Source of the DNA: Gemmatimonadales bacterium
Lineage (GTDB): Bacteria; Gemmatimonadota; Gemmatimonadetes; Gemmatimonadales; GWC2-71-9
Direction of reading: 5' to 3'
NCBI GenBank assembly: GCA_050733215.1
Contig: JBOHSN010000006.1
Coordinates: 4,708-68,707 of the forward strand
DNA: 64,000 bases
Part shown: positions 18,194 through 48,024 of the stretch, in pieces
Layout: every line of letters starts with the position of its first letter
How positions within the stretch are numbered: position 1 is the first letter of the stretch
Notes under the pieces: generated by a model
What the model was told of the DNA's origin: nothing
Database searches by the model: none
The model's input: the letters and a program-made list of their open reading frames with translations, nothing else
Position numbers and translations under genes: made by a program

Positions 18194-19072
18194 TCAATTT
18201 ACCCACTCGACCCGGACCGCACCGACGCTGCACTTGAGCGCGATGTCGAGGTGCGGCTCGGCGGGGTCGAAGTCACGCGTGATCCACGAGCCGCCGCGCT
18301 GGACCAGCCCCTCCGAATCGAAGCTGGACAGGAACTTGTCCATCGTGATCCGCACGGGGGCCCGCTTCGGGAGCCGGAGGCGAAGTTCGCCCATCGACAG
18401 CGTGAGCTCGACCGTCTGGGTCGCGGTCCACACGCCGCCGAAATCAAGCGTGAGCTTCCCGACGCCGCCCTCGACCTTCACCTTCTCGCAGCGGCTGTTG
18501 CCCAATCGGTAGATCGCGAGGTCCGCCGCGCCTGCGGCGAAGATGGCGGAGTGGCAGCGGGTCCGGTTGGGGGCGGAGAAGCGGACGCTGGCCCGGCTCG
18601 CGCCGGTCTCGAGGCGCACGCTCGCGATGCGGAGCCCGCCGAGGTCCAGGTCGGCCTCGCCGGCGCCGAGGTTGAGGTCGAGCGCGAGATCGGCCCTGGG
18701 TGAGAGCTCCACGACGGCCTTCTGCCGGAGCTGATTCTTGGAAACCACGCGGAGCCCCGCGCGTCCGGCCGACTCCACGCCGAGCCGCACCGTGGCAGCG
18801 GGCGCCGCATAGTGGCTCAGCGGGACGAAGCGGTCGGCATCGTAGGAGAGGTGCATCCGGTAGAGCTCGCCGTCCCGGCCAGGCACCACCTTGAGCAGCC
18901 CCGCGGCGAACTCGAGCTGGGCATCGAGCTTGGTTTCACCGTGGAGCTGCCGGAACGTGGAATACGGGCGCCAGCTCTGCGCCGACGCCGCGCCCGTCCA
19001 GCCGAGCAGCGCGCCCGCCGCGGCAACGCCGGTCGCCCATACTCGCACTCGCACTCGCACTCGCACCGGCAC
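18194..19072 (-). CDS. Secreted beta-rich protein, DUF4097/toastrack-like (putative adhesin fold)
   Basis: Signal-like WATGVAAAGALLGWTGAASAQS, then repeated LxLxxGxGxxxLDLGG strands. The start is ambiguous: five in-frame GTGs (19072-19048) lie inside a hexamer repeat. Confidence 0.45.
   Translation of the reverse strand: MPVRVRVRVRVWATGVAAAGALLGWTGAASAQSWRPYSTFRQLHGETKLDAQLEFAAGLLKVVPGRDGELYRMHLSYDADRFVPLSHYAAPAATVRLGVESAGRAGLRVVSKNQLRQKAVVELSPRADLALDLNLGAGEADLDLGGLRIASVRLETGASRASVRFSAPNRTRCHSAIFAAGAADLAIYRLGNSRCEKVKVEGGVGKLTLDFGGVWTATQTVELTLSMGELRLRLPKRAPVRITMDKFLSSFDSEGLVQRGGSWITRDFDPAEPHLDIALKCSVGAVRVEWVN
19041..19064. repeat. Hexamer tandem repeat ACTCGC x4 (minus strand GTGCGA x4, encoding VRVRVRVR)
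   Basis: Direct reading. It is the reverse complement of the array at 3684..3707 and lies at the 5' end of the CDS 18194..19072. Confidence 0.8.
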
Positions 19073-29718: not shown

Positions 29719-29889
29719 AGGGGACCCTCGGAACCTCGGGAGAGCGGGACGCAGCGGGACAACCGTCGCCGCGGGGCGAGCCCGTTCATCAGGGGGGCAC
29801 GCATCGCGCCGTGGCGCGGCCGGGCGAGATCCCCTCATTAGTACGACGTTTCGGGCTTCAACGTCCGCACAAGCAACCGGCAACCCGTC

Positions 29890-31814: not shown

Positions 31815-32456
31815 TCAGCCGCTGGTGGCGAAGCCGGGGTAAAGCGTCATGCCGCCATCTACGTAAAGGCTGACCCCGTTGACGTAGTCGGACTCGTCGG
31901 ACGCCATCCATACGACCGCCCGGCAGGGGATGACCTCGTGCACCGAGCTCACGCACACGATCTTGCCGGCCGCGCAGGACACCTCCGGCCGCACGCCGCG
32001 CCGCTTGAATTCCCGTACCGCCTCACGGGCGCAAAGAAACTGGCCGGTCAGGTTGACGCCGATGACGAGGCTCCACTGCTCGAGAGTCATCTGGTCCACC
32101 GGCGCATCCTGCTGCAGGCCGGCGTTGTTGACCATGACGTCGATCGTGCCGAGCTCGTCGAGCATGCGGCGGAACATGGCCTGCACCTGGTCCTCGCGTG
32201 ACACGTCGGCCTGGTGGGCGTAGGCCTGGACGCCACCCGCCCGTATGTGATCGACAACCTCTGCGGCCGCCTCCTCGCCGCGGACGTAGTTCACGACAAC
32301 GTCCGCCCCGGCCTCGCCCAGGGCGAGCGCGACCGCCTTGCCGATTCCGGAGTTTGCTCCGGTGACCAGGGCCTTCTGTCCCTTCAATATTTGGCGGACC
32401 TTGCAGGTGGGCATGACGACATCGGGCAGGGCGTCGTCGCGTACGATGGTTGCCAT
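31815..32456 (-). CDS. SDR-family oxidoreductase (glucose 1-dehydrogenase-like) carrying an internal in-frame deletion of the YxxxK region; possibly non-functional
   Basis: TGANSGIGKA, NNAG and SSVHEVIP are present, but the sequence then jumps to ...CRAVVWMASDESDYVNG...DGGMTLYPGF. It is 213 aa versus about 260 for the family. Confidence 0.7.
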   Translation of the reverse strand: MATIVRDDALPDVVMPTCKVRQILKGQKALVTGANSGIGKAVALALGEAGADVVVNYVRGEEAAAEVVDHIRAGGVQAYAHQADVSREDQVQAMFRRMLDELGTIDVMVNNAGLQQDAPVDQMTLEQWSLVIGVNLTGQFLCAREAVREFKRRGVRPEVSCAAGKIVCVSSVHEVIPCRAVVWMASDESDYVNGVSLYVDGGMTLYPGFATSG

Positions 32457-32581
32457 CGGGGTCTCACGGTCGGTGGATAGGGGCGTAATGCCGCTGCCTC
32501 CCGGCCGGTTCCGCCGTCCGAACGTCGCGGCCGGGGACGCGGGTCCCGGCACGGAGCCATGTTGTTGGTGGCGAGGCCGAA

Positions 32582-33166
32582 TCAGATGGCGGCGCGGAGT
32601 CCGAGGTCGCGGGCGGTGGCGGCGAGGCGCTTCCAGAGGAGCCTGCGCCCGCGGTGCAGCCGCGACCGCACCGTGCCCACCGGACACCCGATCGTCTCCG
32701 CGATCTGTTCGTAGGAGAGATCGTCCACGAAGTAGAGCACTGCGACCGTGCGGTACTCGAGGGGAAGCGACGCAAGCGCCGCCTGCACCGCCTGGAGGTC
32801 CATCGTGCCGAGGACGGCAGTGGCCGCGTCCGACCCGTCGGCGGCCCAGCGGGCGTCGGCCGCGGTGCGGTCCCCGCTCTCGCCGTCCTCCGCGACCAGC
32901 GGCACCGTGATTCCGCGCCGCCGCTCGGCGCGACAGCGGGTGAGAAACACGTTGACCACGATGCGCTGGAACCAGGCCCGGAAGTTGGTGCCCGGCTCGA
33001 AACTCTCGAAGCTGCGCCAGGCGAGCAGCGACGCCTCCTGCACGATGTCTTCCGCGTCCGCCGTGTTGCGCGCGAGGTGGTACGCCGCGCGGTATGCCGG
33101 CTCGAGCACCGGCTGGAGCAGCCGCTCGAAGGTGCTGGTTCGGGTTTCCTCAGCGGGGGGCGTCAT
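32582..33166 (-). CDS. ECF-type sigma-70 factor
   Basis: Last 194 aa of ORF 32582..33922. Region 2 DAEDIVQEASLLAWRSF...FRAWFQRIVVN and region 4 LPLEYRTVAVLYFVDDLSYEQIAETIGCPVGTVRSRLHRGR. The ATG at 33166 overlaps the STAS stop (ATGA). Confidence 0.85.
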   Translation of the reverse strand: MTPPAEETRTSTFERLLQPVLEPAYRAAYHLARNTADAEDIVQEASLLAWRSFESFEPGTNFRAWFQRIVVNVFLTRCRAERRRGITVPLVAEDGESGDRTAADARWAADGSDAATAVLGTMDLQAVQAALASLPLEYRTVAVLYFVDDLSYEQIAETIGCPVGTVRSRLHRGRRLLWKRLAATARDLGLRAAI

Positions 33167-33429
33167 GCGAGCTCCTTGCTCAGCAACTCCCGGATGAGCG
33201 GGGTGCAGTCCACGATCTCGATACGGTCCTGCGGCAGATGGCGAAGCAGCTCCAGCCCGGCGGCGTCCAGGTATACCACGTCGCGGAAGTCCAGTTGGAT
33301 CCGGGCGCCCTCGTCGAGCACCCGGCGCAGCTCCTGGCCCAGCACGGGCAGCGTGGTCTGGGTGATGACCCCCTCGACTTTGAGGCGGATCAGCTCGGGC
33401 TCGGTCGTGACGTTCGTGAGTCTCAGCAT
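33163..33429 (-). CDS. STAS-domain protein (anti-sigma-factor-antagonist fold) lacking the phosphorylatable serine
   Basis: 88 aa. LDFRDVVYLDAAGLELL aligns with the SpoIIAA/RsbV motif D(S/T)(S/T)GL, but with Ala-Ala. Confidence 0.7.
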   Translation of the reverse strand: MLRLTNVTTEPELIRLKVEGVITQTTLPVLGQELRRVLDEGARIQLDFRDVVYLDAAGLELLRHLPQDRIEIVDCTPLIRELLSKELA

Positions 33430-33459
33430 GTTTGGTCCGTGGGTTCGCCCACGAGTAAA

Positions 33460-33475
33460 AGCACCCCGCGTGCCA
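33460..33475 (-). promoter_or_regulatory. Candidate sigma54 (-24/-12) promoter for the STAS-ECF sigma operon
   Basis: The minus strand reads TTGGCACGCGGGGTGCT, against the consensus YTGGCACGrNNNTTGCW. GG and GC have canonical spacing. The GC is 32 nt upstream of the ATG at 33429 and the site is about 150 nt downstream of the stop of a sigma54-activator gene. Confidence 0.55.
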
Positions 33476-33627
33476 AGCGGACGACCCGCCGGGTACAGCG
33501 TGACAACATGTTGAAGGGATTTGGCTTAGGTGACGTATCCGAGCGACGGCCGCTCGCCAAACGCACTCGGGGTCCCAAAAAGTTGGGAATCTCCCACGTC
33601 GATCTCCGGGGGAATTTGGGAGGCGAC

Positions 33628-36600
33628 CTAGCCCGGCCGACGGACGCCCAGCTTCTTCATTCGCGCTTCGAGGGTCGTGGGCTTGAGACCCAGAAGCACC
33701 GCTGCACCTCTGGGTCCGCTCACCCGCCACCCGGTCTGTTCCAGTACCTCCGCGATGTGTCTCCGCTCCATCTCCTCCAGGGTCGGCTGCCCGGCTCCCC
33801 GGCTGCTCGGAGCCGCTCCACTGTCGGAAGGCAGCAGCCCGTCCAGCTCCAGCGCGGAACCACGGCTCAGAATGACCGATCGCTCGATGACGTTGGCCAG
33901 CTCGCGGATGTTGCCGGGCCACGGGTAAGCGGTCAGCCCCTCAAGCACGCCCCGGGGCACCGCCTCGATGCGCTTTCCGAGCTTCGCGGCGTACTTGAGG
34001 ACGAAGTACCGGACCAGCTCCGCGATGTCTTCGGCCCGCTCCCGTAGCGCCGGGTTCCGGATGGGGAACACGTTGAGCCGGTAGAAGAGGTCGGCCCGGA
34101 AGCGGCCGTCGCGGACCCGTGCCTCGAGGTCGCGATGCGTTGCCGCGATCACCCGCACATCCACGTTGATCGGGCGAAGGCCGCCCACCCGCTCGATCTC
34201 ACCTTCCTGGAGGACCCGGAGCAGCTTCACCTGTGAGTCGAGCGGCAGATCCCCGATCTCGTCGAGAAAGAGCGTGCCCCCGTCGGCGACTTCGAACCGT
34301 CCGATTCGCCGGCTCACGGCTCCAGTGAAGGCGCCCTTCTCGTGGCCGAACAGCTCGCTCTCGACCAGCCCCGGGGAGATCGCGCCGCAATTGACCGTGA
34401 TGAGCGCGCGGTCGCGCCGGGGGCTCAGCTTGTGAATCGCCCGGGCGAGCAACTCCTTCCCGGTGCCGGTTTCCCCGGTGATCAGGACGGTGGTGTCGCC
34501 CGGCGCCACCTGCTCGACCTCCGTGAGCACCCGGCGAAGCGCCGGGCTTCGCCCGACGATCTCCTCGAATCCGTGCTCGGTCTCGATCTGCTCCTGGAGG
34601 TAGACGTTCTCGGTCTCCAGCCGGTCCTTGAGCCGCCGCACCTCGGCGAGCGCGGCCCGAAGCGACTCTTCCGCCCGCTTGCTGTCGTCGATGTCGGTTG
34701 CCACGCCGAACCAGCGGGTGGTCGCTTCCTCCGGGCTGCGCATCGGGATCGCGCGGGCGCGGAACCAGCGGTGCTGGCCGTCCGCCCTCCGAAGCCGATA
34801 CTCGGTCTCGAACGCCTCGCCGGTCCGCACCGATTGCTCCCAGGCCGCGGTCGTGCGCTCGCGGTCGCCGGTATGGACGGCGGCAAGCCAGCCCTGGCCG
34901 AGGCAGCGCGCGAGCGGGAGCCCCGTGTATTCCGAGAACCGGCGGCTCACGTAGTCGCATCCACCGTCGGTGCCGGCGGTGAACAGGACTTCGGGCACCG
35001 TCTCCGCCATGGTGCTGTAGCGAAGCTGGCTCTCGCGCAGCGCGTCGCCAGTGCGCTTGCGCTCCAACTCCGCGCCGGCGCGGGCGGCGAAGATACGCAG
35101 GATCGCGAGGTCGTCCGGGGTCGGTGTGATCGGGGCGGTGTGGAGCACCGCGAGATGGCCGAGCAGGTCGCCGGTGGCTCCGCGAAGGGGGATGCCCAGA
35201 TAACTCTCCGCACCGAGGGTCTGGAGCTCGGTATCGGCCGGGAAGAGCGCCTGGATGTCGCGGGTATGCAGGCACATGTCGCCCCCGAGCACCTGCTGGC
35301 AGGGTGTTCCACTGACCGCATACTCCACGTTCTCCGCGAAGTCCGACCCGCTCCAGAACGCGAGCGTGCGGACGCGGGTGCGCTCGGCGTCGGTGCATTC
35401 CGCCGCGAACGCGTAGCGGGCCTGGAGCGCGTCGGCCAGATGCTGGACCAGGGGGCGGAAGAAGTCACCCGCCGTCACGGCGGCCGTGCCCTCCGCCAAG
35501 GCCCGGAGCTTCGCCTCGGCGCGCGTACGCTCGGTCACTTCCTGGCGCGTCCGCTCGTACAGGCGCGCGTTTTCGATGGCGATGGCGGCCTGAGCGGAGA
35601 TCAGCTGCATCACCCGGACGCGCTCGGGAGTGAAGGCGTGTGGGGTGAGCCGGTTCTCGACGTAGAGCGTGCCGACGAGGGTGCCCTGATTGAGGACCGC
35701 GGTGCAGAGTACGGAGCGGGGCCGCTCGCGCACGATGTACGGATCCTCCGCGCAGCGCTCGTCCACCGGCGCGTCGGCCACCACGACGTTCTCGCGGGTC
35801 CGGCGCACGTAGTGGATCAGACTGACCGGCAGATCGACACTCTCGGCCAGCGGCACGGTCGGTCCGCCGAGCACCTCGATCCGATCGTGCGAGCCGGTGA
35901 CGCGCACGACGGGCCCGGCTTCCCCCTCGAGCACGAGGGAGCCCCGCTCGGCACCGGCGTTCTCGAGCGCGACGCGCATGAGTCGGTCCAGTAGCCGCTC
36001 GAGATCGATCTCCTGGCCGATCGCCTGGGCGGCCTTGATCGCGGCCGCTGCATCGATCGAAATGTCGAGCGTCTCGCTGGACACGAGCACCGACGAGCCG
36101 CTCGGCCGCGCAGATCCATCCGGGGCCAACCCCTGCCGCAGCAGTTCGGGATACCGGCGGTCCAGGTCCGCCACCTTGGCGGTTGCGCCCCACTGCGCGT
36201 ACCCGAAGCGGGCCTCGGCCAGGAACACCGCCGCGACCTTGGGCTGTCCGCGCTGGAGCCAGAACCGGCCGTACAGCTCGTTGATGAGCGCCCGGTGTCG
36301 AGGCGATTCCTGAGCGGCGACCGCCTCGAGGGCGGCGTCATATAGCGTGACCGCGTCCCCCGGTCGCTGCCGCACCCGCGCGATCTCCGCCGAAGCGAGG
36401 AGGTGGAGATGCCCGAAGTTCTCGGGAGCGCTCTCCGCCCAGCGGGCGAGCCGCGCCTCGAGCCGATCAAGCTTGGTCTCCGCGGGCGGCCGCTCGCCGG
36501 CCGGGGCGTCCGGCAGCCAAGCGCAGATGGCGAGCACGTGGCGGAAGGTGAACATCGCGGGCCAGATCGAGCCGACGAACACGTCGGCGGCCGCCTCTTC

Positions 36601-39600
36601 GGTCGCTGCGTAGCGCCGAGCCGCCTCGACCTGCCCGAAGGTGTGGAGGAGCTCGAGCTTCACCGTGGCATGCAGGGCGCGGAAGATACCGCTGCCCCCG
36701 AGCAGCTTGAGGTAACGCTCCTCGTCGAAATCCGAGCCCGACAGACTGATCGGCGTCTCTGTGCGGCCACGCAGCGCCTCGCTCCACTGCAGCATGACGC
36801 GCTGCATCTCGACGTAGGTGTGGAGCTGTAGCCGGGCGAGCAGGTCCGCCGTGGGTCCGTGACGATCGGCGAACGTCTCGAGGTCGCGCTCGATCTGCAT
36901 CCCGTACCACGCCTGCTGGAACTGTGCGTAGCCCGCCACCGCGAGGTTCCCGGACTCGAAAGCCGCGCGGACCGCCTCCCGGGCGTGGACGATGCAGTTC
37001 GCGAACGGCTGCCGCCACGCATTGACCAACGCCGCAAACCGGTGATGCACGATCGCGCGAAGTCGCAGATCCGCGAAGCGCTCATTGACCGCCAGCGCGA
37101 GCTCGCCGAACTCCGCGCCACGCTCGTACTCGCCGAACACGGAGCCCACGGTCATCGCGTGGTGCAGGAAGCCGAAGGCCGACGGCTCGCTGACGCCGTG
37201 CTCGAGCGACAGACGCACGAGGCGGGCTGCGACGAGGTCGCCGAGGCGGGTCTGTCCGCTGATGTACGCCGGCGCCCAAGCCGCCTGGAGCAGCCGCATC
37301 GCCTGACGCATGCCGGGATCCTGCACCGGCGGGAGCTCCACCAGGCTCGCGATGGGCCGCGTCCCGATCGCCCGCCGAATCGCATCGAGCTCGGCGGCGA
37401 GGTCCGGTTCCCAGGCAGCCGGATCGGCGCTCACGGCGACGTCGAGCCGGCGGAGCCCGTCGAGGCCGGCCGCAATCGCGTCCGCGTAGCGCGACATTGT
37501 CTCGTACTCGACCATCAGCAGGGCGTAGACGTCGGCGACATCGAGCGGTGACCGGCACCGTTCGAGCAGCGCGAGGAAGCTCCTTTCCGCCTCGTCCAGG
37601 CGGGCGCAGAGATACTCGGCTTCCGCCCGCTCGAGGTGCAGCGCGAAGGCGAGCTCGTAATGCTCGGACCAGGCGGTGTCGGGAAGCAGCTCCGTTCCGA
37701 CCGTGAAATGGCTCAGGGCGCTCGGGTACGCGGCCGATGCTTTGGCCTTGCGCCCGGCGTCAAGGTTCAGCTGGGCCAGACGCCGGCGCTCGCCGGCATC
37801 GGCGATGAGCGAACGACCGTAGTTCAGGTGGTTGGCCACCTCGAACAGGCTGTCCGCGCGGGCGTCGCCGCCGCGCTCGAGCAGCAACCGCCCGACGGTG
37901 AGATGCGCCTGCCGCCGGCCCTCCTCGGGAATCAGCGCGTACGCGGCCTGCTGCACCCGGTCGTGGAGGAAGCGGTAGCCGATCTCGGCGGGTTCGATGC
38001 CGGTGGAGAGGTCCGGCGCGAATCCGTACGACTTGTCCAGCGAAAGCACGAGTCCTTGCTCGACCGCCTCCCACAGATCCGCGGCGGCCTCGGCCGGCTC
38101 CGCCTGGCTGATGATGGCAAGCGTCCGGAGATCGAACCGGTCACCCACGCACGCCGCGAGGCGAAGCGCCCGCTGGGTGCGGGAACCGAGGCGGGAGATC
38201 TTGGCCGCCATCAACGCGAGGACGTTGTCGGCGAGCTCCACCCGAGCCGTCCGGTCCAGATCGACCCGCCATCCGCCCGTGGCCTCGTCGAACGTGATGA
38301 GCCCGTCGGCGTGGAGCGACTGTAGCAGCTGCTTGACGAAGAAAGGATTGCCGCCCGTCTTGGTGAGAACGAGGTCCGCGGCAGCGGATGCGTGTCCCGC
38401 GTCGGTCCGAAGCGCGTCCGCGACCAGCTCCCGCAGCTGGCCGGCGTCGAGCGGCGGGAGCGCGATCTCCTCGATCCGCACCCGCGCGGCGAGTTCGCCG
38501 ACGGTCAGCCGCAGGGGATGGGTGGGGGACACCTCGTTGTCACGATACGCGCCGATAACGAGGAGCCCACGGATGTCCGGGTCGGTCAGCAGGAAGGGCA
38601 GCAGGGCGAGCGTCGCCGCGTCCGCCCACTGGAGGTCGTCCAGGAACAGAACCAGGGGGTGGTCGGCACGAGCGAACGCGGCCACGAACTTCTGGAAGAC
38701 CAGATTGAACCGGTTCTGCGCCTCGGTCGGCCCGAGCACCGGGGCCGGGGGCTGGGGGCCGAGGATGCGCTCGAGCTCGGGGATGACGTCGATCACGACC
38801 TGGGCATTGGCGCCGAGCGCGGCGCCCAGCCGCGCCGCCCAGGTGCGGACCTCCTCGTCGCTTGCCGCGAGCGTCTGGCGCACCAGCGCCTGGAATGCCT
38901 GGGCGAGCGCCCGATAGGGAACGTCCCGCGCCAGCTGGTCGAACTTCCCCGCGATCAGGTGGGCCTGTCCCCGGGTCATCGACTTGTAGACCTCCTGGAT
39001 GAGCGAGGTCTTCCCGATGCCGGAGTAACCGGTCACCAGCACGAGCTCGGTCGCGCCGGCCGCGACCCGCTCAAATGCCGCCCGCACGGCGGCGCCTTCC
39101 GCGGCCCGCCCGTACAGCCGCTGAGGAACCACGAACCGGGTCGAGCTGTCCTCGGTGCCCAGCGGGTGCTCGCCCACCGTTCCCGATGCCTCCAGCTCGG
39201 CAGCGAACCGCGCCAGATCCGCGCGCAGCCCCTGCGCGCTCTGGTAACGCGCCTCGGGCATCTTCTCGAGCAGGCGCGTGACCGCCCGGCAGACGACCTC
39301 GGGCAGCTCGGGCCGCCGGAGCGCCGGCGAGTCCGGCAGCCGTGCGATATGGCCGTGGATCAGCTCCAGCGGATCCGACGAATCGAAGGGCAGCCGCCCG
39401 GTCAGCATCTCGTACAGGGTCACGCCCAGCGAGTACAGATCCGTGTGGTAATCCACATCCCGGTTCATCCGCCCGGTCTGTTCGGGCGACATGTAGGCGA
39501 TCGTGCCCTCGAGCAGATGCGGGTGGCTCGGCGGCTGCGGCTCGCTCGTCAGGCGGGAGGCGATGCCGAAGTCGGTCAGCGTGACGCGCGAGGTGGCGGC

Positions 39601-40008
39601 GTCAACCAGGATGTTGTTGGGATTGACGTCTTTGTGGATGATGCCGCGACGGTGGAGCTCGCCGAGGACGGTCGCGAGCTGCACGCCGATGCTCAGCACC
39701 TGGCGGAGGGGAAGCGGGCTGCTCGCGATCAGCGTCTTGAGCGGCACTCCGCCGGCGTCCTCGAGCACGAGGGCGACGCGGTCGCGATGCGTCACCAGCT
39801 CCAGCGGCCGGGCCACGCCGGCAATCGAGAGGGACGACAGGATCTGGTACTCACGCCGCAACGCGGTCAACTGCGCGGGCGCGGGAAACTCATCCGCCGG
39901 GGTCTTGATCACGGCCGGGAGGCCGTCGCGCCGGCGGGTTGCCCGGAAGACGACGCGGCGGCGACCCCGGTAGATCTCCTGCTGGATGTCGTAGCCGGGA
40001 ATGCTCAT
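33628..40008 (-). CDS. 2126-aa multidomain regulator: Ser/Thr protein kinase - AAA_16/STAND NTPase - helical repeats - GAF - GAF - PAS - sigma54-interaction AAA+ - Fis-type HTH
   Basis: Kinase aa 6-268 (39205-39993): PAVIK, IIHKDVNPNNIL, DFG, SPE. AAA_16 aa 296-500: GYSGIGKTS, LVLFLDDLQWAD. GAF about 1315-1485 and 1505-1650. PAS about 1660-1780. Sigma54 AAA+ aa 1814-2055 (33844-34569): GETGTGKE, GAFTGA, TLFLDEIG. HTH aa 2078-2120. Confidence 0.9.
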   Translation of the reverse strand: MSIPGYDIQQEIYRGRRRVVFRATRRRDGLPAVIKTPADEFPAPAQLTALRREYQILSSLSIAGVARPLELVTHRDRVALVLEDAGGVPLKTLIASSPLPLRQVLSIGVQLATVLGELHRRGIIHKDVNPNNILVDAATSRVTLTDFGIASRLTSEPQPPSHPHLLEGTIAYMSPEQTGRMNRDVDYHTDLYSLGVTLYEMLTGRLPFDSSDPLELIHGHIARLPDSPALRRPELPEVVCRAVTRLLEKMPEARYQSAQGLRADLARFAAELEASGTVGEHPLGTEDSSTRFVVPQRLYGRAAEGAAVRAAFERVAAGATELVLVTGYSGIGKTSLIQEVYKSMTRGQAHLIAGKFDQLARDVPYRALAQAFQALVRQTLAASDEEVRTWAARLGAALGANAQVVIDVIPELERILGPQPPAPVLGPTEAQNRFNLVFQKFVAAFARADHPLVLFLDDLQWADAATLALLPFLLTDPDIRGLLVIGAYRDNEVSPTHPLRLTVGELAARVRIEEIALPPLDAGQLRELVADALRTDAGHASAAADLVLTKTGGNPFFVKQLLQSLHADGLITFDEATGGWRVDLDRTARVELADNVLALMAAKISRLGSRTQRALRLAACVGDRFDLRTLAIISQAEPAEAAADLWEAVEQGLVLSLDKSYGFAPDLSTGIEPAEIGYRFLHDRVQQAAYALIPEEGRRQAHLTVGRLLLERGGDARADSLFEVANHLNYGRSLIADAGERRRLAQLNLDAGRKAKASAAYPSALSHFTVGTELLPDTAWSEHYELAFALHLERAEAEYLCARLDEAERSFLALLERCRSPLDVADVYALLMVEYETMSRYADAIAAGLDGLRRLDVAVSADPAAWEPDLAAELDAIRRAIGTRPIASLVELPPVQDPGMRQAMRLLQAAWAPAYISGQTRLGDLVAARLVRLSLEHGVSEPSAFGFLHHAMTVGSVFGEYERGAEFGELALAVNERFADLRLRAIVHHRFAALVNAWRQPFANCIVHAREAVRAAFESGNLAVAGYAQFQQAWYGMQIERDLETFADRHGPTADLLARLQLHTYVEMQRVMLQWSEALRGRTETPISLSGSDFDEERYLKLLGGSGIFRALHATVKLELLHTFGQVEAARRYAATEEAAADVFVGSIWPAMFTFRHVLAICAWLPDAPAGERPPAETKLDRLEARLARWAESAPENFGHLHLLASAEIARVRQRPGDAVTLYDAALEAVAAQESPRHRALINELYGRFWLQRGQPKVAAVFLAEARFGYAQWGATAKVADLDRRYPELLRQGLAPDGSARPSGSSVLVSSETLDISIDAAAAIKAAQAIGQEIDLERLLDRLMRVALENAGAERGSLVLEGEAGPVVRVTGSHDRIEVLGGPTVPLAESVDLPVSLIHYVRRTRENVVVADAPVDERCAEDPYIVRERPRSVLCTAVLNQGTLVGTLYVENRLTPHAFTPERVRVMQLISAQAAIAIENARLYERTRQEVTERTRAEAKLRALAEGTAAVTAGDFFRPLVQHLADALQARYAFAAECTDAERTRVRTLAFWSGSDFAENVEYAVSGTPCQQVLGGDMCLHTRDIQALFPADTELQTLGAESYLGIPLRGATGDLLGHLAVLHTAPITPTPDDLAILRIFAARAGAELERKRTGDALRESQLRYSTMAETVPEVLFTAGTDGGCDYVSRRFSEYTGLPLARCLGQGWLAAVHTGDRERTTAAWEQSVRTGEAFETEYRLRRADGQHRWFRARAIPMRSPEEATTRWFGVATDIDDSKRAEESLRAALAEVRRLKDRLETENVYLQEQIETEHGFEEIVGRSPALRRVLTEVEQVAPGDTTVLITGETGTGKELLARAIHKLSPRRDRALITVNCGAISPGLVESELFGHEKGAFTGAVSRRIGRFEVADGGTLFLDEIGDLPLDSQVKLLRVLQEGEIERVGGLRPINVDVRVIAATHRDLEARVRDGRFRADLFYRLNVFPIRNPALRERAEDIAELVRYFVLKYAAKLGKRIEAVPRGVLEGLTAYPWPGNIRELANVIERSVILSRGSALELDGLLPSDSGAAPSSRGAGQPTLEEMERRHIAEVLEQTGWRVSGPRGAAVLLGLKPTTLEARMKKLGVRRPG

Positions 40009-46194: not shown

Positions 46195-48024
46195 ATGTGT
46201 GGCATTGTCGGATACATCGGTCCGCGCCCCGCGGCCCACCTGCTCATCGACGGGCTCCGACGTCTCGAGTATCGCGGGTATGACTCCGCCGGAATCGCCG
46301 TGGTGAACGGCACCGGCCTCAAGATCCACAAGGCCGCCGGCAAGCTGTCCACGCTCGAGCAGCAGCTCGACGGCAATCTCCCTCTCGGCACGCTTGGCAT
46401 AGGGCATACGCGCTGGGCCACTCACGGTGCCCCCACCACGCCGAATGCGCATCCGCACACCGACCAGTCGGGCCGGATCGCCGTGATCCACAACGGGATC
46501 ATCGAGAATGCGTCCGCGATCCGGAAGGCGCTGGTCCAGCGGGGCCACACCTTCCGCTCGGAAACGGATACCGAGGTCCTCGCCCACCTGGTGGGCGAGT
46601 TCTACCGCGGCAACCTCGAGGAGGCGGTGGCGAACGCGCTCCGCGACGTCGAAGGGGCGTACGGCTTGGCGTTCATCTCGGCTGACGAGCCGAACGTGCT
46701 CGTGGCGGCGCGGAAGGGATCGCCGCTGCTCCTGGGGGTGGGGGAGAACGAGTGGTTCGTCGCGTCCGATGCCTCACCGCTGCTCCAGTACACCCGCTCG
46801 GTGATCTACCTCGACGACGGCGAGCTGGCGGTGCTGACCCGTGAGGGATACCGCGTGCGCACGCTGGACACCGCCCGGATCAGCAAGCCGATCGCCCAGA
46901 TCGACTGGGATCTGGCGACGATCGAGCGGGGCGGGTACCCGCACTTCATGCTGAAGGAGATCTTCGAGCAGCCGGAAAGCCTCCGCAACACGCTACGCGG
47001 CCACCTGCTGGAAGACGAGGGCACCGCGCGGGTCTCCGGCCTCAATCTGTCCGACGAGCAGCTCGCGAAAGTACAACGCATCGTCATCACGGCGTGCGGC
47101 ACCTCGTGGCACTCCGGGCTCATCGGCGAGTACATGCTCGAGGAGATGGCCCGGATCCCGGTGGAGGTCGAGTACGCGTCGGAGTTCCGCTACCGGAACC
47201 CGGTCGTGGACGAGCACACGCTGGTGATCGGCGTCTCGCAGTCGGGCGAGACCGCCGACACGCTGGCCGCCATCCGCGAGGCCAAGCAGCGTGGCGCGCG
47301 CACCATCGGCGTGGTGAACGTCGTCGGCTCGACCATCGCGCGCGAGGTGGATGGGGGCATCTACCTGCACGCCGGTCCGGAGGTGGGCGTCGCCAGCACC
47401 AAGGCGTTCACCAGCCAGGTCGCGGCGCTGTCGCTGGTCGCGTTGCGGATCGCGCGGCTCCGCAGCCTGAGCGTTCTTCACGGCCGGCAGATCATTCAGG
47501 CGCTCGACCGCCTGCCCGATCAGATGGCGGCGATTCTCCAGCGGTCGGAGGAGATCGAGCGGCTCGCCGAGCGCTTCCTGGCCACCACGCACAACGCGCT
47601 CTACCTGGGCCGGGGGGTCAATTTCCCGGTGGCGCTCGAGGGCGCGCTGAAGCTGAAGGAGATCTCCTACATCCACGCGGAGGGCTACCCCGCGGCGGAG
47701 ATGAAGCACGGTCCCATCGCCCTGATCGACGAGAACATGCCCGTGGTGTTCATCGCGCCCCGGGACGCGGTACACCCCAAGATCGTGTCGAACATCGAGG
47801 AGGTGAAGGCGCGCGGTGGCAAGGTTATTGCTCTCGTCAATGCCGGCGATGCGGAGATCGAGCGCTTGGCGGACGCGACCTTCGAAATTCCGGAGACGCT
47901 GGACCTCCTGACCCCGATTCTCACCAGTATCCCGCTGCAACTGCTGGCGTATTTTGTGGCGGTGCGGCGCGGATGCAACGTGGACCAGCCGCGAAATCTG
48001 GCCAAGTCGGTGACGGTGGAGTAG
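46195..48024 (+). CDS. glmS: Glutamine--fructose-6-phosphate aminotransferase
   Basis: MCGIVGY N-terminal nucleophile, two SIS domains and the C-terminal ...NLAKSVTVE. Confidence 0.95.
   Translation: MCGIVGYIGPRPAAHLLIDGLRRLEYRGYDSAGIAVVNGTGLKIHKAAGKLSTLEQQLDGNLPLGTLGIGHTRWATHGAPTTPNAHPHTDQSGRIAVIHNGIIENASAIRKALVQRGHTFRSETDTEVLAHLVGEFYRGNLEEAVANALRDVEGAYGLAFISADEPNVLVAARKGSPLLLGVGENEWFVASDASPLLQYTRSVIYLDDGELAVLTREGYRVRTLDTARISKPIAQIDWDLATIERGGYPHFMLKEIFEQPESLRNTLRGHLLEDEGTARVSGLNLSDEQLAKVQRIVITACGTSWHSGLIGEYMLEEMARIPVEVEYASEFRYRNPVVDEHTLVIGVSQSGETADTLAAIREAKQRGARTIGVVNVVGSTIAREVDGGIYLHAGPEVGVASTKAFTSQVAALSLVALRIARLRSLSVLHGRQIIQALDRLPDQMAAILQRSEEIERLAERFLATTHNALYLGRGVNFPVALEGALKLKEISYIHAEGYPAAEMKHGPIALIDENMPVVFIAPRDAVHPKIVSNIEEVKARGGKVIALVNAGDAEIERLADATFEIPETLDLLTPILTSIPLQLLAYFVAVRRGCNVDQPRNLAKSVTVE

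What the first reader, a model, noticed from the sequence alone, without database searches (positions are those of the whole stretch)
33430..33627. Near-consensus -24/-12 (sigma54) promoter between the giant activator gene and a STAS-ECF sigma operon
The minus strand at 33476-33460 reads TTGGCACGCGGGGTGCT, against the consensus YTGGCACGrNNNTTGCW. The TGGCACG block is perfect, the GG-to-GC spacing is canonical, and only the first T of TTGC is changed. The GC sits 32 nt before the STAS ATG (33429). Upstream, at typical enhancer distances, lie the palindromes CAACATGTTG (33504-33513), CCCAA-AAAG-TTGGG (33574-33587) and TGGGA-ATC-TCCCA (33584-33596). Inference: the adjacent 2126-aa activator drives this promoter, giving a sigma54 -> ECF sigma cascade.
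Basis: partly seen in the sequence, partly recalled or inferred. Interest (0 to 1): 0.75.

Follow-up and report, generated by a model that had tools for sequence, protein, structure and literature searches.

The report
Conserved sigma-54 promoter driving an ECF sigma operon
In a Gemmatimonadales genome, the gap between a giant kinase-fused activator gene and a small operon for an alternative (ECF) sigma factor holds a sigma-54 promoter and its enhancer site, both conserved across related genomes, which points to a sigma-54-to-ECF regulatory cascade like the known HrpL one, though nothing has been tested experimentally.

Summary
The motif is present exactly as described: TTGGCACGCGGGGTGCT at 33476-33460 on the minus strand, with the -12 C 32 nt before the STAS ATG.

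The motif alone proves little. The window gives 1 match against 0.63 expected, and an equally good match lies inside glmS.

Comparison with relatives settles it. In seven other Gemmatimonadota loci with the same gene order (giant activator, then STAS and/or ECF sigma), the intergenic region has diverged to about 35% identity. Two blocks stay at about 75%:
- TGGCAC-N5-(C/G)TGC(T/C)TTT, with a variable spacer. It lies 31-34 nt before the start codon in seven of the eight regions.
- The palindrome TCCCAA-N4-TTGGGA (window 33588-33573). In seven of the eight regions its centre sits 130-135 bp upstream of the predicted start site (33449).

All activators examined keep GAFTGA and a near-identical C-terminal helix-turn-helix. 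More distant ECF relatives next to separate Ser/Thr kinases and small activators carry the same two elements. Relatives paired with zf-HC2 anti-sigma factors carry neither.

The design has a known precedent in HrpRS/sigma-54/hrpL. What is new is the clade and the kinase-STAND-GAF-PAS activator. I could not check for rpoN in this genome, and no transcription data exist.

The parts
33628..40008 (-). Gene for the 2126-aa enhancer-binding protein. Domain order: Ser/Thr kinase, AAA_16 (STAND-type NTPase) with a helical/TPR-like region, GAF, GAF, PAS, sigma-54 AAA+ domain, AAA lid, HTH_8.
   Evidence: Pfam: Pkinase 6-259, AAA_16 297-485, GAF 1335-1478, PAS_3 1686-1770, Sigma54_activat 1817-1983 (E 1.4e-75), HTH_8 2076-2120. 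GAFTGA, Walker A GETGTGKE, kinase HKDVNPNN and DFG are present. A 100% identical protein in NCBI is named 'sigma 54-interacting transcriptional regulator [Gemmatimonadales bacterium]'.
33573..33596 (.). Upstream activator (enhancer) site. The core palindrome TCCCAA-N4-TTGGGA is at 33588-33573, with a third half-site TGGGA at 33596-33592. The centre lies about -131.5 from the predicted transcription start.
   Evidence: Exact match in the window. Conserved in L001, L002, L161, L163, L165, L166 and L173, with a variable N4 and no covariation. Mean pairwise identity is 0.75 against 0.35 for the rest of the intergenic region. The centre lies at -130.5 to -134.5 in seven loci. The same site occurs in one or two copies upstream of distant ECF relatives.
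33500..33530 (-). Spacer between enhancer and promoter. It contains the non-conserved palindrome CAACATGTTG (33504-33513). Only AA (33527-33526) and TT (33506-33505) are invariant. It may be a DNA-bending (IHF/HU-type) region, but this is inference only.
   Evidence: Mean identity here is 0.35-0.49 in alignment A2. The palindrome is absent from the orthologues.
33460..33476 (-). Sigma-54 type -24/-12 promoter TTGGCACGCGGGGTGCT, with GG at 33474-33473 and GC at 33462-33461.
   Evidence: Shuffle p within the intergenic region is 0.0004. GG, A and TGC are invariant across eight orthologous regions while the five-base spacer varies. Eight of the 11 matches to TGG[CT]A[CT]-N5-NTGC in 302 kb of Gemmatimonadota DNA are these ECF-upstream sites.
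33430..33449 (-). Predicted transcription start (about 33449, 12 nt downstream of the -12 C) and a leader of about 20 nt. The leader contains the conserved CGAACCC (33447-33441). A hairpin, CGTGGG-CGAA-CCCACG, spans 33453-33438 and so begins 4 nt upstream of the predicted start.
   Evidence: The start position is inferred from the canonical sigma-54 geometry. The distance from the -12 C to the start codon is 31-34 nt in seven of eight loci. The hairpin folds at -10.8 kcal/mol with z = -2.6 in the window only. The CGAACC sequence, but not the hairpin, recurs in the orthologues.
33163..33429 (-). Gene for an 88-aa STAS-domain protein, the first gene of the operon.
   Evidence: Pfam STAS_2 scores 31.4 bits against a cut-off of 29.2. 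Orthologues are present in L001, L161, L163, L165, L166 and L173. The position of the phospho-acceptor reads DAAG rather than DSSG (read from the sequence).
32582..33166 (-). Gene for a 194-aa ECF (group 4) sigma factor. Its ATG overlaps the STAS stop codon (ATGA), which suggests translational coupling.
   Evidence: Pfam Sigma70_r2 and Sigma70_r4_2. Start and overlap. Among NCBIfam models only the superfamily model TIGR02937 passes its cut-off. DAEDIVQE is retained in region 2.2.

Best explanation
The 198-bp gap between the activator gene and the STAS gene is a complete enhancer-dependent sigma-54 control region.

Proposed mechanism:
1. RNA polymerase carrying sigma-54 binds TGGCAC-N5-GTGC (33475-33461) as a closed complex.
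2. The C-terminal Fis-type helix-turn-helix of the adjacent 2126-aa activator binds the palindrome TCCCAA-N4-TTGGGA (33588-33573), about 131 bp upstream of the start site.
3. The N-terminal sensing modules (Ser/Thr kinase, STAND-type NTPase, two GAF domains, PAS) release their control. The AAA+ domain then oligomerises, loops over to the promoter, contacts sigma-54 through its GAFTGA loop, and uses ATP to open the DNA.
4. Transcription starts near 33449 and yields a STAS-ECF sigma mRNA with translationally coupled genes.
5. The new ECF sigma factor redirects RNA polymerase to its own, still unknown, regulon.

Shown by sequence comparison: the motifs, their selective conservation, their fixed spacing, the intact catalytic and sigma-54-contact motifs, and the conserved gene linkage.

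Inferred only: that this protein binds this site, that expression depends on sigma-54, the start site, the nature of the signal, and the roles of the kinase domain and the STAS protein.
For: - Motif and geometry.
- Probability of an equally good match in this intergenic region: 0.0004.
- All eight orthologous intergenic regions carry the element. These loci have 53-87% ECF identity and 62-89% activator identity. The naive joint probability is about 1e-19, which overstates the case because the regions are homologous.
- Footprint in alignment A2: promoter block 0.73 and enhancer block 0.75 mean identity, against 0.35 elsewhere. 16 of 22 invariant columns fall in these two blocks (Fisher p = 2.7e-8).
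- GG, A and TGC are invariant while the N5 spacer varies freely. This is the pattern expected from sigma-54 contacts.
- The enhancer centre is fixed at -130.5 to -134.5, and the -12 C lies 31-34 nt from the ATG, even though the DNA in between has diverged.
- 8 of 11 relaxed matches in 302 kb of Gemmatimonadota DNA are these sites.
- The activator has Sigma54_activat at E 1.4e-75, plus GAFTGA, Walker A and HTH_8.
- The HTH sequence W(R/K)VSGPxGAAxxLGLKPTTLEARMKKLG is nearly invariant in every activator next to such a site.
- Four ECF relatives at 54-56% identity, next to separate kinases and/or small PAS-type activators, have the same enhancer plus a GGCAC-N..-TG(C/T/A) element.
- Negative controls lack both elements: three relatives paired with zf-HC2 anti-sigma factors, and 80 more distant metagenomic ECF loci.
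- There is no sigma-70-type promoter and no Rfam family.
- Sigma-54 and enhancer-binding proteins exist in the phylum (Francke 2011 supplement).
- Precedent for sigma-54-driven ECF genes: hrpL (PMC8999054; PMC3105312 and PMC5263251).
Against: - There is no transcript, start-site or binding data.
- rpoN was not found in the window or in any fetched locus, and the rest of the genome could not be searched.
- The -12 element has G or C where the consensus has the first T. In three distant relatives the GC itself reads GT or GA, which is unusual for sigma-54.
- The orthologous regions share ancestry, so their agreement is not statistically independent.
- L004 has a diverged enhancer (TTCCTGA-N4-TCGTGAA) even though its HTH is nearly the same.
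- L178 has the DNA elements but no activator gene within 8 kb. Paralogous activators share the HTH, so the adjacent protein need not be the only activator, or even the activator.
- The gap is short and lacks a terminator, so read-through from the activator gene may also contribute.
Confidence: 0.85

Rival explanations
1. The promoter is a real sigma-54 promoter, but a different enhancer-binding protein activates it. This would be a paralogue with the same helix-turn-helix. The adjacency of the giant gene would then reflect shared history or a different functional link, for example kinase action on the STAS or ECF protein.
For: The HTH is nearly identical in the giant activators and in the small PAS-type activators of related loci. 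L178 has the enhancer and promoter without any activator gene within 8 kb. L004 encodes two activators flanking the ECF gene.
Against: In all eight loci of the close clade, the giant gene ends 30-60 bp before the enhancer. No second GAFTGA protein is encoded in the 64-kb window.
Confidence: 0.08
2. The two conserved blocks serve another system, for example a repressor-bound palindrome plus a promoter for a sigma-70-family or ECF sigma factor. The resemblance to a -24/-12 promoter would then be coincidental.
For: A motif of equal consensus score occurs by chance inside glmS. ECF genes are usually autoregulated. A GAAC-containing block (CGAACCC, 33447-33441) is conserved just downstream.
Against: The invariant positions are exactly GG, A and TGC at 10-bp spacing, with a free spacer. 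No -35/-10 pair was found. A GAAC-type -35 at 33447 would put the start inside the coding sequence. The elements co-occur only with enhancer-binding protein genes and never with anti-sigma-linked relatives.
Confidence: 0.04
3. The palindrome is the intrinsic terminator or attenuator of the activator transcript. STAS-ECF expression would then be set mainly by read-through.
For: The simple scan flagged TGGGAGATTCCCA followed by ACTTTTTGGG as terminator-like. The palindrome can fold as a 6-bp RNA hairpin.
Against: No U-run follows the hairpin in the window or in any orthologue. Folding z-scores range from -1.7 to +0.3. The arms are invariant in sequence and show no compensatory changes, which indicates a constraint on the DNA. 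The same palindrome occurs upstream of ECF genes that are not preceded by an activator gene (L175, L177, L178).
Confidence: 0.02
4. The motif is a chance match with no function.
For: One match against 0.63 expected in the window.
Against: The motif is conserved, with fixed spacing, in all eight orthologous regions while the flanks have diverged.
Confidence: 0.01

Closest known systems
HrpR/HrpS, sigma-54 and hrpL in Pseudomonas syringae; HrpS and hrpL in Erwinia and Dickeya (PMC3105312, PMC5263251, PMC8999054)
   Same: An ECF sigma factor gene is transcribed from a sigma-54 -24/-12 promoter. AAA+ enhancer-binding proteins encoded next to it activate that promoter. The ECF factor has no co-encoded anti-sigma factor, so it is controlled mainly through its synthesis. 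Together these form a sigma-54 to ECF cascade.
   Different: The ECF group differs. HrpL belongs to ECF32, whereas this protein passes only the ECF superfamily model and its best below-cut-off match is a SigH-like model. HrpR and HrpS are small proteins that lack a sensory domain and act as a hetero-hexamer. Here a single 2126-aa protein carries kinase, STAND, GAF, GAF and PAS modules. Here a STAS gene is co-transcribed. The phylum differs and the regulon is unknown.
Rrp2, RpoN and RpoS cascade of Borrelia burgdorferi (from my own knowledge, not checked here)
   Same: An enhancer-binding protein and sigma-54 switch on the gene for a second, alternative sigma factor.
   Different: The downstream sigma factor is RpoS (group 2), not an ECF factor. 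Rrp2 is a response regulator and acts without a defined enhancer site.
Kinase-associated ECF sigma factors: ECF43 (EcfP/PknT), EcfK/PknS, and groups ECF59-62, 217, 267 and 283 (PMC7826278, PMC8999054, PMC13147305)
   Same: An ECF gene with no anti-sigma factor is genomically tied to a Hanks-type Ser/Thr kinase. In relatives the kinase is a separate 860-870-aa protein. In the window it is the N-terminal domain of the activator.
   Different: ECF43 members lack the DAED motif in region 2.2 and are activated by direct phosphorylation. This ECF and all its relatives keep DAED or DADD. The kinase link comes together with an enhancer-binding protein and a sigma-54 promoter, which suggests control at the level of transcription.
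GAF/PAS-regulated enhancer-binding proteins of the FhlA/NifA/NorR type
   Same: The C-terminal 340 residues align end to end with the FhlA model (404 bits) and with the NifA and NorR models. The order GAF/PAS, AAA+, Fis-type HTH is the same.
   Different: All scores are below the equivalog cut-offs (FhlA cut-off 830). About 1300 additional N-terminal residues carry the kinase and STAND modules.
Cyanobacterial Pkinase-AAA_16-GAF-histidine kinase proteins (HstK-like; the name is from my own knowledge)
   Same: Residues 1 to about 1500 align at 36-40% identity with many Nostoc, Microcoleus and other cyanobacterial proteins.
   Different: In those proteins the alignment stops before the sigma-54 AAA+ domain. 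I did not check their C-terminal domains here; from my own knowledge, proteins of this type end in a histidine kinase. The sigma-54 output version is common in databases: all 120 best hits carry PF00069 plus PF00158, and they come from Gemmatimonadota, Acidobacteria, Nitrospirota and Eisenbacteria. I found no paper describing it.
SpoIIAA/RsbV-type STAS anti-anti-sigma factors
   Same: A small STAS-domain protein is encoded immediately upstream of a sigma factor gene and is translationally coupled to it.
   Different: The protein is only 88 aa and covers only the first 51 of 80 profile positions. The phosphorylatable Ser is replaced: DAAG in the window, DGSG in L001, DQHG in L004. There is no HATPase-type anti-sigma kinase nearby. 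One orthologous locus (L166) has a zf-HC2 protein after the ECF gene.

Membership tests
Sigma-54 dependent (-24/-12) promoter | GG and GC doublets exactly 10 bp apart within TGGCAC-N5-TTGC | tested here: met
   TGGCAC-GCGGG-GTGC at 33475-33461, matching 11 of 12 specified consensus positions.
Sigma-54 dependent (-24/-12) promoter | Selective conservation of the -24 and -12 blocks in orthologous regions, with a free spacer | tested here: met
   GG, A and TGC are invariant in 8 of 8 regions. The spacer varies. Block identity is 0.73 against 0.35 for the background.
Sigma-54 dependent (-24/-12) promoter | Correct strand and a plausible distance upstream of a gene | tested here: met
   The -12 C lies 31-34 nt before the start codon in seven loci and 53 nt before it in L004.
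Sigma-54 dependent (-24/-12) promoter | An enhancer site about 80-150 bp upstream and a cognate AAA+ activator with GAFTGA | tested here: met
   The palindrome is centred at -131.5 and is conserved. The adjacent activator has GAFTGA, Walker A and HTH_8. Binding itself was not tested.
Sigma-54 dependent (-24/-12) promoter | rpoN present in the same genome | not testable with these tools
   No RpoN-box protein was found in the window or in the loci fetched up to that point, L001-L160. The scan of genome contigs was already used. At phylum level, G. aurantiaca T-27 has sigma-54 and enhancer-binding proteins (Francke 2011 supplement).
Sigma-54 dependent (-24/-12) promoter | Transcription start about 12 nt after the GC, with expression dependent on sigma-54 and an activator | not testable with these tools
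   Requires 5'-end mapping, genetics or in vitro transcription.
Bacterial enhancer-binding protein (sigma-54 AAA+ activator) | Sigma54_activat AAA+ domain with Walker A and B, a GAFTGA loop and a C-terminal HTH | tested here: met
   PF00158 at E 1.4e-75, PF25601 and PF02954. GETGTGKE, LFLDEIG and GAFTGA are present.
ECF (group 4) sigma-70 family | Only regions 2 and 4 are present, and the protein passes the ECF superfamily model | tested here: met
   PF04542 plus PF08281. TIGR02937 scores 87.8 bits against a cut-off of 42.9.
HrpL / ECF32 | Sequence membership of the HrpL group | tested here: inconclusive
   No HrpL model appears among the 25 best of 69 NCBIfam hits. The best hit, SigH_actino, scores 127.9 against a cut-off of 251.6. 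No ECF-group HMMs were available. I treat this as 'works like', not 'is a member of'.
ECF43 (phosphorylation-activated ECF) | Loss of the acidic DAED motif in region 2.2, with a neighbouring Ser/Thr kinase | tested here: not met
   DAEDIVQE is retained in the window and in all 14 relatives aligned. A kinase is nearby or fused.
SpoIIAA/RsbV anti-anti-sigma (STAS) partner-switching module | STAS fold | tested here: met
   PF13466 scores 31.4 bits against a cut-off of 29.2 and covers profile positions 1-51 of 80.
SpoIIAA/RsbV anti-anti-sigma (STAS) partner-switching module | Phosphorylatable Ser in a DSSG/DSTG motif, and an adjacent HATPase-type anti-sigma kinase | tested here: not met
   The sequence reads YLDAAGLE. 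No HATPase_c gene lies in the operon.
Intrinsic (Rho-independent) terminator (rival reading of the palindrome) | A GC-rich hairpin followed directly by a U-run, with the structure conserved rather than the sequence | tested here: not met
   No U-run follows in any locus. Folding z-scores are not significant. The arms are invariant in sequence.

The most novel reading that the evidence does not exclude
[quoted passage not shown] These ECFs keep the DAED motif. The kinase may instead feed into a PAS-AAA+ enhancer-binding protein that switches on the ECF gene from a sigma-54 promoter.

On this reading, the 2126-aa protein is a natural fusion that hard-wires the pathway kinase to activator to sigma-54 to ECF into one polypeptide. 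Its kinase domain might additionally act on the co-transcribed STAS protein or on the ECF itself, which would give a feed-forward loop.
Probability: 0.3. Interest if true: 0.7.

Novelty: new variant of a known kind. Interest (0 to 1): 0.5.

Why it matters
Transcription of an ECF sigma gene by sigma-54 is experimentally established for essentially one system, hrpL of plant pathogens.

This locus shows an independent and evolutionarily conserved instance of the same design in Gemmatimonadota, a poorly studied soil phylum. All the cis elements are defined to the base: promoter, enhancer, their spacing and the predicted start site. It is therefore directly testable with reporters, EMSA and in vitro transcription.

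It also gives a first likely target and DNA site for one clade of a large, uncharacterised family of kinase-STAND-GAF-PAS enhancer-binding proteins. All 120 best database hits share the kinase plus sigma-54 architecture, across at least four phyla.

Finally, it offers a concrete alternative explanation for kinase-associated ECF groups that retain the DAED motif. Reviews list the mechanism of those groups as unknown.

Tried and rejected
- Whole-window statistics for the motif were not significant. The second-best hit, at 47817, lies inside glmS.
- A metagenome scan with the ECF alignment returned only relatives at 48% identity or less. None had a convincing -24/-12 motif upstream. These served only as a negative background.
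- The sigma-70 promoter scan found none. The two 'terminators' it flagged are the enhancer palindrome and the -24 region themselves. I rejected them after folding and comparison.
- Rfam found nothing in 33000-33800.
- A search for an RpoN-box protein in the window and in the loci fetched up to that point found none, so rpoN remains unverified for this genome.
- NCBIfam gave no specific family for the ECF or the STAS protein.
- Literature searches for kinase-fused enhancer-binding proteins found nothing. The supplements of the ECF classification paper, which might have assigned an ECF group, are not held.
- CAACATGTTG as an enhancer was rejected because it is not conserved.
- The 5'-leader hairpin was not taken as a conserved structure, because only the CGAACC sequence recurs.
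- FHA or other phospho-binding domains in the small activators were not found. Their N-termini look PAS-like.
- L005, a 66% identical activator, has a different downstream gene and neither element. It is probably a paralogue whose target lies elsewhere.

Full report
**Where the window comes from and what it encodes**

The window is from a Gemmatimonadales bacterium. The 2126-aa protein is 100% identical to an NCBI MAG protein named 'sigma 54-interacting transcriptional regulator [Gemmatimonadales bacterium]'. The closest genomic loci are Gemmatimonadales and Gemmatimonadota MAGs. G+C content is 70%.

On the minus strand the gene order is as follows.
- The activator gene, 40008-33628. Its domains are Pkinase, AAA_16, GAF x2, PAS, Sigma54_activat, AAA_lid_14 and HTH_8.
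- A 198-bp gap.
- An 88-aa STAS gene, 33429-33163.
- A 194-aa ECF sigma gene, 33166-32582, whose ATG overlaps the STAS stop codon as ATGA.
- A short-chain dehydrogenase gene, a DUF1622 gene, an alginate-export porin gene and a cupredoxin-like lipoprotein gene.

**Checking the observation**

Taken alone, the motif is weak evidence. TGGCAC-N6-TGC occurs once in the window against 0.63 expected by chance. A match of equal consensus score lies inside glmS at 47817-47832. At that rate a genome of a few megabases (my own estimate of its size) would hold dozens of chance matches.

Within the 198-bp gap on the correct strand, only about 0.04% of 5000 dinucleotide shuffles reach the same score.

**Comparative test**

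I collected loci in two independent ways: from the activator, with a genome scan, and from the ECF sigma, with a protein search followed by context look-ups.

Seven further distinct loci have the arrangement giant activator, then STAS and ECF. These are L001, L004, L161, L163, L165, L166 and L173. Their ECF identity to the window is 53-87%. In L004 the ECF gene follows the activator directly.

The intergenic regions aligned in A2 are largely scrambled, with a mean pairwise identity of 0.35. Two islands stand out, at 0.73 and 0.75. Sixteen of the 22 invariant columns fall within these 44 columns (Fisher p = 2.7e-8).

*Island 1* is TGGCAC-N5-(C/G)TGC(T/C)TTT. GG, A and TGC are invariant and the five spacer bases vary freely. 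This is the pattern expected if sigma-54 contacts are what is being conserved. Each region also passes its own shuffle test, with p between 0.0002 and 0.034. The -12 C lies 31-34 nt before the start codon in seven of the eight regions (using the MLRL start for L173).

*Island 2* is the palindrome TCCCAA-N4-TTGGGA, usually preceded by G(T/G)GAGAT. This block provides a third half-site in the window and in three orthologues (L161, L166, L173). The arms are invariant in sequence, N4 is free, and there are no compensatory changes. That points to a protein-binding DNA site rather than an RNA stem. In seven of the eight regions its centre lies 130.5-134.5 bp upstream of the predicted +1, although the DNA in between is not conserved. 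In L004 the site has diverged to TTCCTGA-N4-TCGTGAA.

In 302 kb of Gemmatimonadota DNA, 8 of the 11 matches to TGG[CT]A[CT]-N5-NTGC are these sites.

**The activator**

All the giant proteins keep the features below.
- The kinase motifs HKD(V/I/L)NPNN and DFG.
- The sigma-54 AAA+ Walker A motif. L001 has the variant GATGTGKE.
- The GAFTGA loop that contacts sigma-54.

The last 100 residues, including W(R/K)VSGPxGAAxxLGLKPTTLEARMKKLG, are almost invariant.

The C-terminal 340 residues resemble FhlA, NifA and NorR but fall below the equivalog cut-offs.

**A wider family**

ECF relatives at 54-56% identity are not next to a giant activator.
- In L175 and L177 they sit beside a separate Ser/Thr kinase of about 870 aa and a small PAS-like sigma-54 activator.
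- In L168 they sit beside a response regulator and such an activator.
- In L178 they sit beside three kinases.

All four loci carry one or two copies of the same palindrome. Where there are two, they are 19-20 bp apart. All four also carry a GGCAC-N..-TG(C/T/A) element at a comparable distance, and the small activators share the HTH.

ECF relatives followed by a zf-HC2 anti-sigma factor (L170, L179, L180) have neither element. The same is true of 80 more distant metagenomic ECF loci.

A quick neighbour-joining tree places the zf-HC2-linked proteins in one clade and seven of the eight giant-activator-linked proteins in another. All keep the acidic DAED or DADD motif.

**Rival explanations**

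- No sigma-70-type promoter is present.
- The terminator-like calls are the palindrome and the -24 region themselves. No U-run follows, the folding z-scores are unremarkable, and the same palindrome occurs where no gene precedes it.
- Rfam finds nothing.
- Two uncertainties remain: read-through from the activator gene, and activation by a paralogous activator with the same HTH.

**rpoN**

I could not search the rest of the genome. The only phylum-level evidence found is that the Francke et al. 2011 supplement lists a sigma-54 homologue and enhancer-binding proteins for Gemmatimonas aurantiaca T-27.

Indirect support comes from the many intact GAFTGA activators in these MAGs. There are also perfect TGGCAC-N5-TTGC sites elsewhere in Gemmatimonadales contigs.

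**Comparison with what is known**

The design has an established precedent in HrpR/HrpS, sigma-54 and hrpL (PMC8999054; PMC3105312 and PMC5263251).

This system differs in ECF lineage, in activator type and in the co-transcribed STAS gene.

It is not an ECF43-type phospho-activated sigma factor, because DAED is retained (criterion from PMC8999054).

The STAS protein lacks the phospho-acceptor Ser and has no partner kinase, so it is not a canonical SpoIIAA/RsbV module.

The kinase-plus-sigma-54 architecture is common in databases. All 120 best hits have it, and the named ones come from Gemmatimonadota, Acidobacteria, Nitrospirota and Eisenbacteria. I found no paper describing it.

**Verdict**

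This is a new variant of a known regulatory design. It is moderately interesting, mainly because the elements are defined precisely enough to test directly, and because it suggests a transcriptional route linking Ser/Thr kinases to ECF sigma factors.

Noticed in passing
window 31815-32456 (-): The short-chain dehydrogenase gene after the ECF gene has an in-frame 74-aa deletion relative to its 94%-identical orthologue in L161 (residues 178-251 of that protein). The deleted stretch is where, from general knowledge of the family, the catalytic Tyr-x3-Lys motif lies. The real start is MATIVRDD at 32456, not the GTG at 32687. In L001 only remnants of the gene remain. The gene looks as if it is decaying in this clade.
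   Followed up: yes
window 29722-29889 (-); L161 11604-11770; L163 11329-11497; L165 8461-8644; L001 about 18380-18565: The region upstream of the cupredoxin-like lipoprotein gene is unusually conserved: 70% mean column identity, even to loci with 66-69% ECF identity. It contains TGTGC-N18-CGTC(C/G)TA, a possible ECF-type promoter. This is followed by a GC-rich leader of about 50 nt that can form a long hairpin, with a few compensatory changes. There is no Rfam match. It may be a target of the ECF sigma factor or a new leader element.
   Followed up: partly
window 32457-32581 (-): CGGAACC and CGGCATTACG are conserved between the ECF stop codon and the dehydrogenase start in the window, L161 and L163. 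This could be an ECF-type -35/-10 pair. Only three close sequences were compared.
   Followed up: no
window 47817-47832 (+): TGGCAAGGTTATTGCT scores as well against the sigma-54 consensus as the finding does, but it lies inside the glmS coding sequence. It is a chance match and shows that the motif alone is not diagnostic.
   Followed up: yes
window 33438-33453 (-): The 5' leader contains CGAACCC, conserved in most orthologues just after the predicted start site. In the window only, it also contains a 7-bp hairpin (-10.8 kcal/mol, z = -2.6). By analogy with the negative autoregulation of hrpL, the GAAC block could be a site for the ECF holoenzyme. This is speculation.
   Followed up: partly
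L168 7732-8000; L175 6783-7187; L177 7666-8000; L178 7767-8000: ECF relatives at 54-56% identity sit next to separate Ser/Thr kinases (Pkinase plus a PD40/Tricorn beta-propeller) and small PAS-like sigma-54 activators. They carry the same TCCCAA-N4-TTGGGA sites, sometimes two copies 19-20 bp apart, plus a -24/-12-like element. In three of them the GC of the -12 element reads GT or GA.
   Followed up: partly
L170 10209-10223 (-); L179 10264-10278 (+): Perfect TGGCAC-N5-TTGC and TGGCAT-N5-TTGC matches occur elsewhere on Gemmatimonadales contigs. One lies about 80 nt upstream of an acyltransferase-3 gene. They are candidate additional sigma-54 promoters in the order.
   Followed up: no
L163 1094-7510: In this MAG the orthologous activator is annotated as two ORFs of 1879 aa and 246 aa, split inside the AAA+ region. 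This is either a frameshift or pseudogene, or an assembly error. The promoter and enhancer downstream are intact.
   Followed up: no
L004 7741-9987 (-) and 10972-11250 (+): In the most divergent giant-activator locus, the ECF gene directly follows the promoter with no STAS gene between them. A second, GAF-PAS-type sigma-54 activator converges on it, and a STAS gene lies 3 kb further on. The module has been rearranged rather than lost.
   Followed up: no
L166 8806-9105: One orthologous locus has a 99-aa zf-HC2 (anti-sigma-like) gene right after the ECF gene, giving the order STAS, ECF, zf-HC2. This hints that the STAS protein may once have belonged to a partner-switching module. The window has no such gene.
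   Followed up: no
window 33628-40008 (-) and protein hits P0121-P0240: The Pkinase-AAA_16-GAF-(PAS)-Sigma54_activat-HTH_8 architecture is widespread. All 120 best hits (42-100% identity) have it, including proteins from Acidobacteria/Blastocatellia, Nitrospirota and Candidatus Eisenbacteria. They are annotated only generically.
   Followed up: partly
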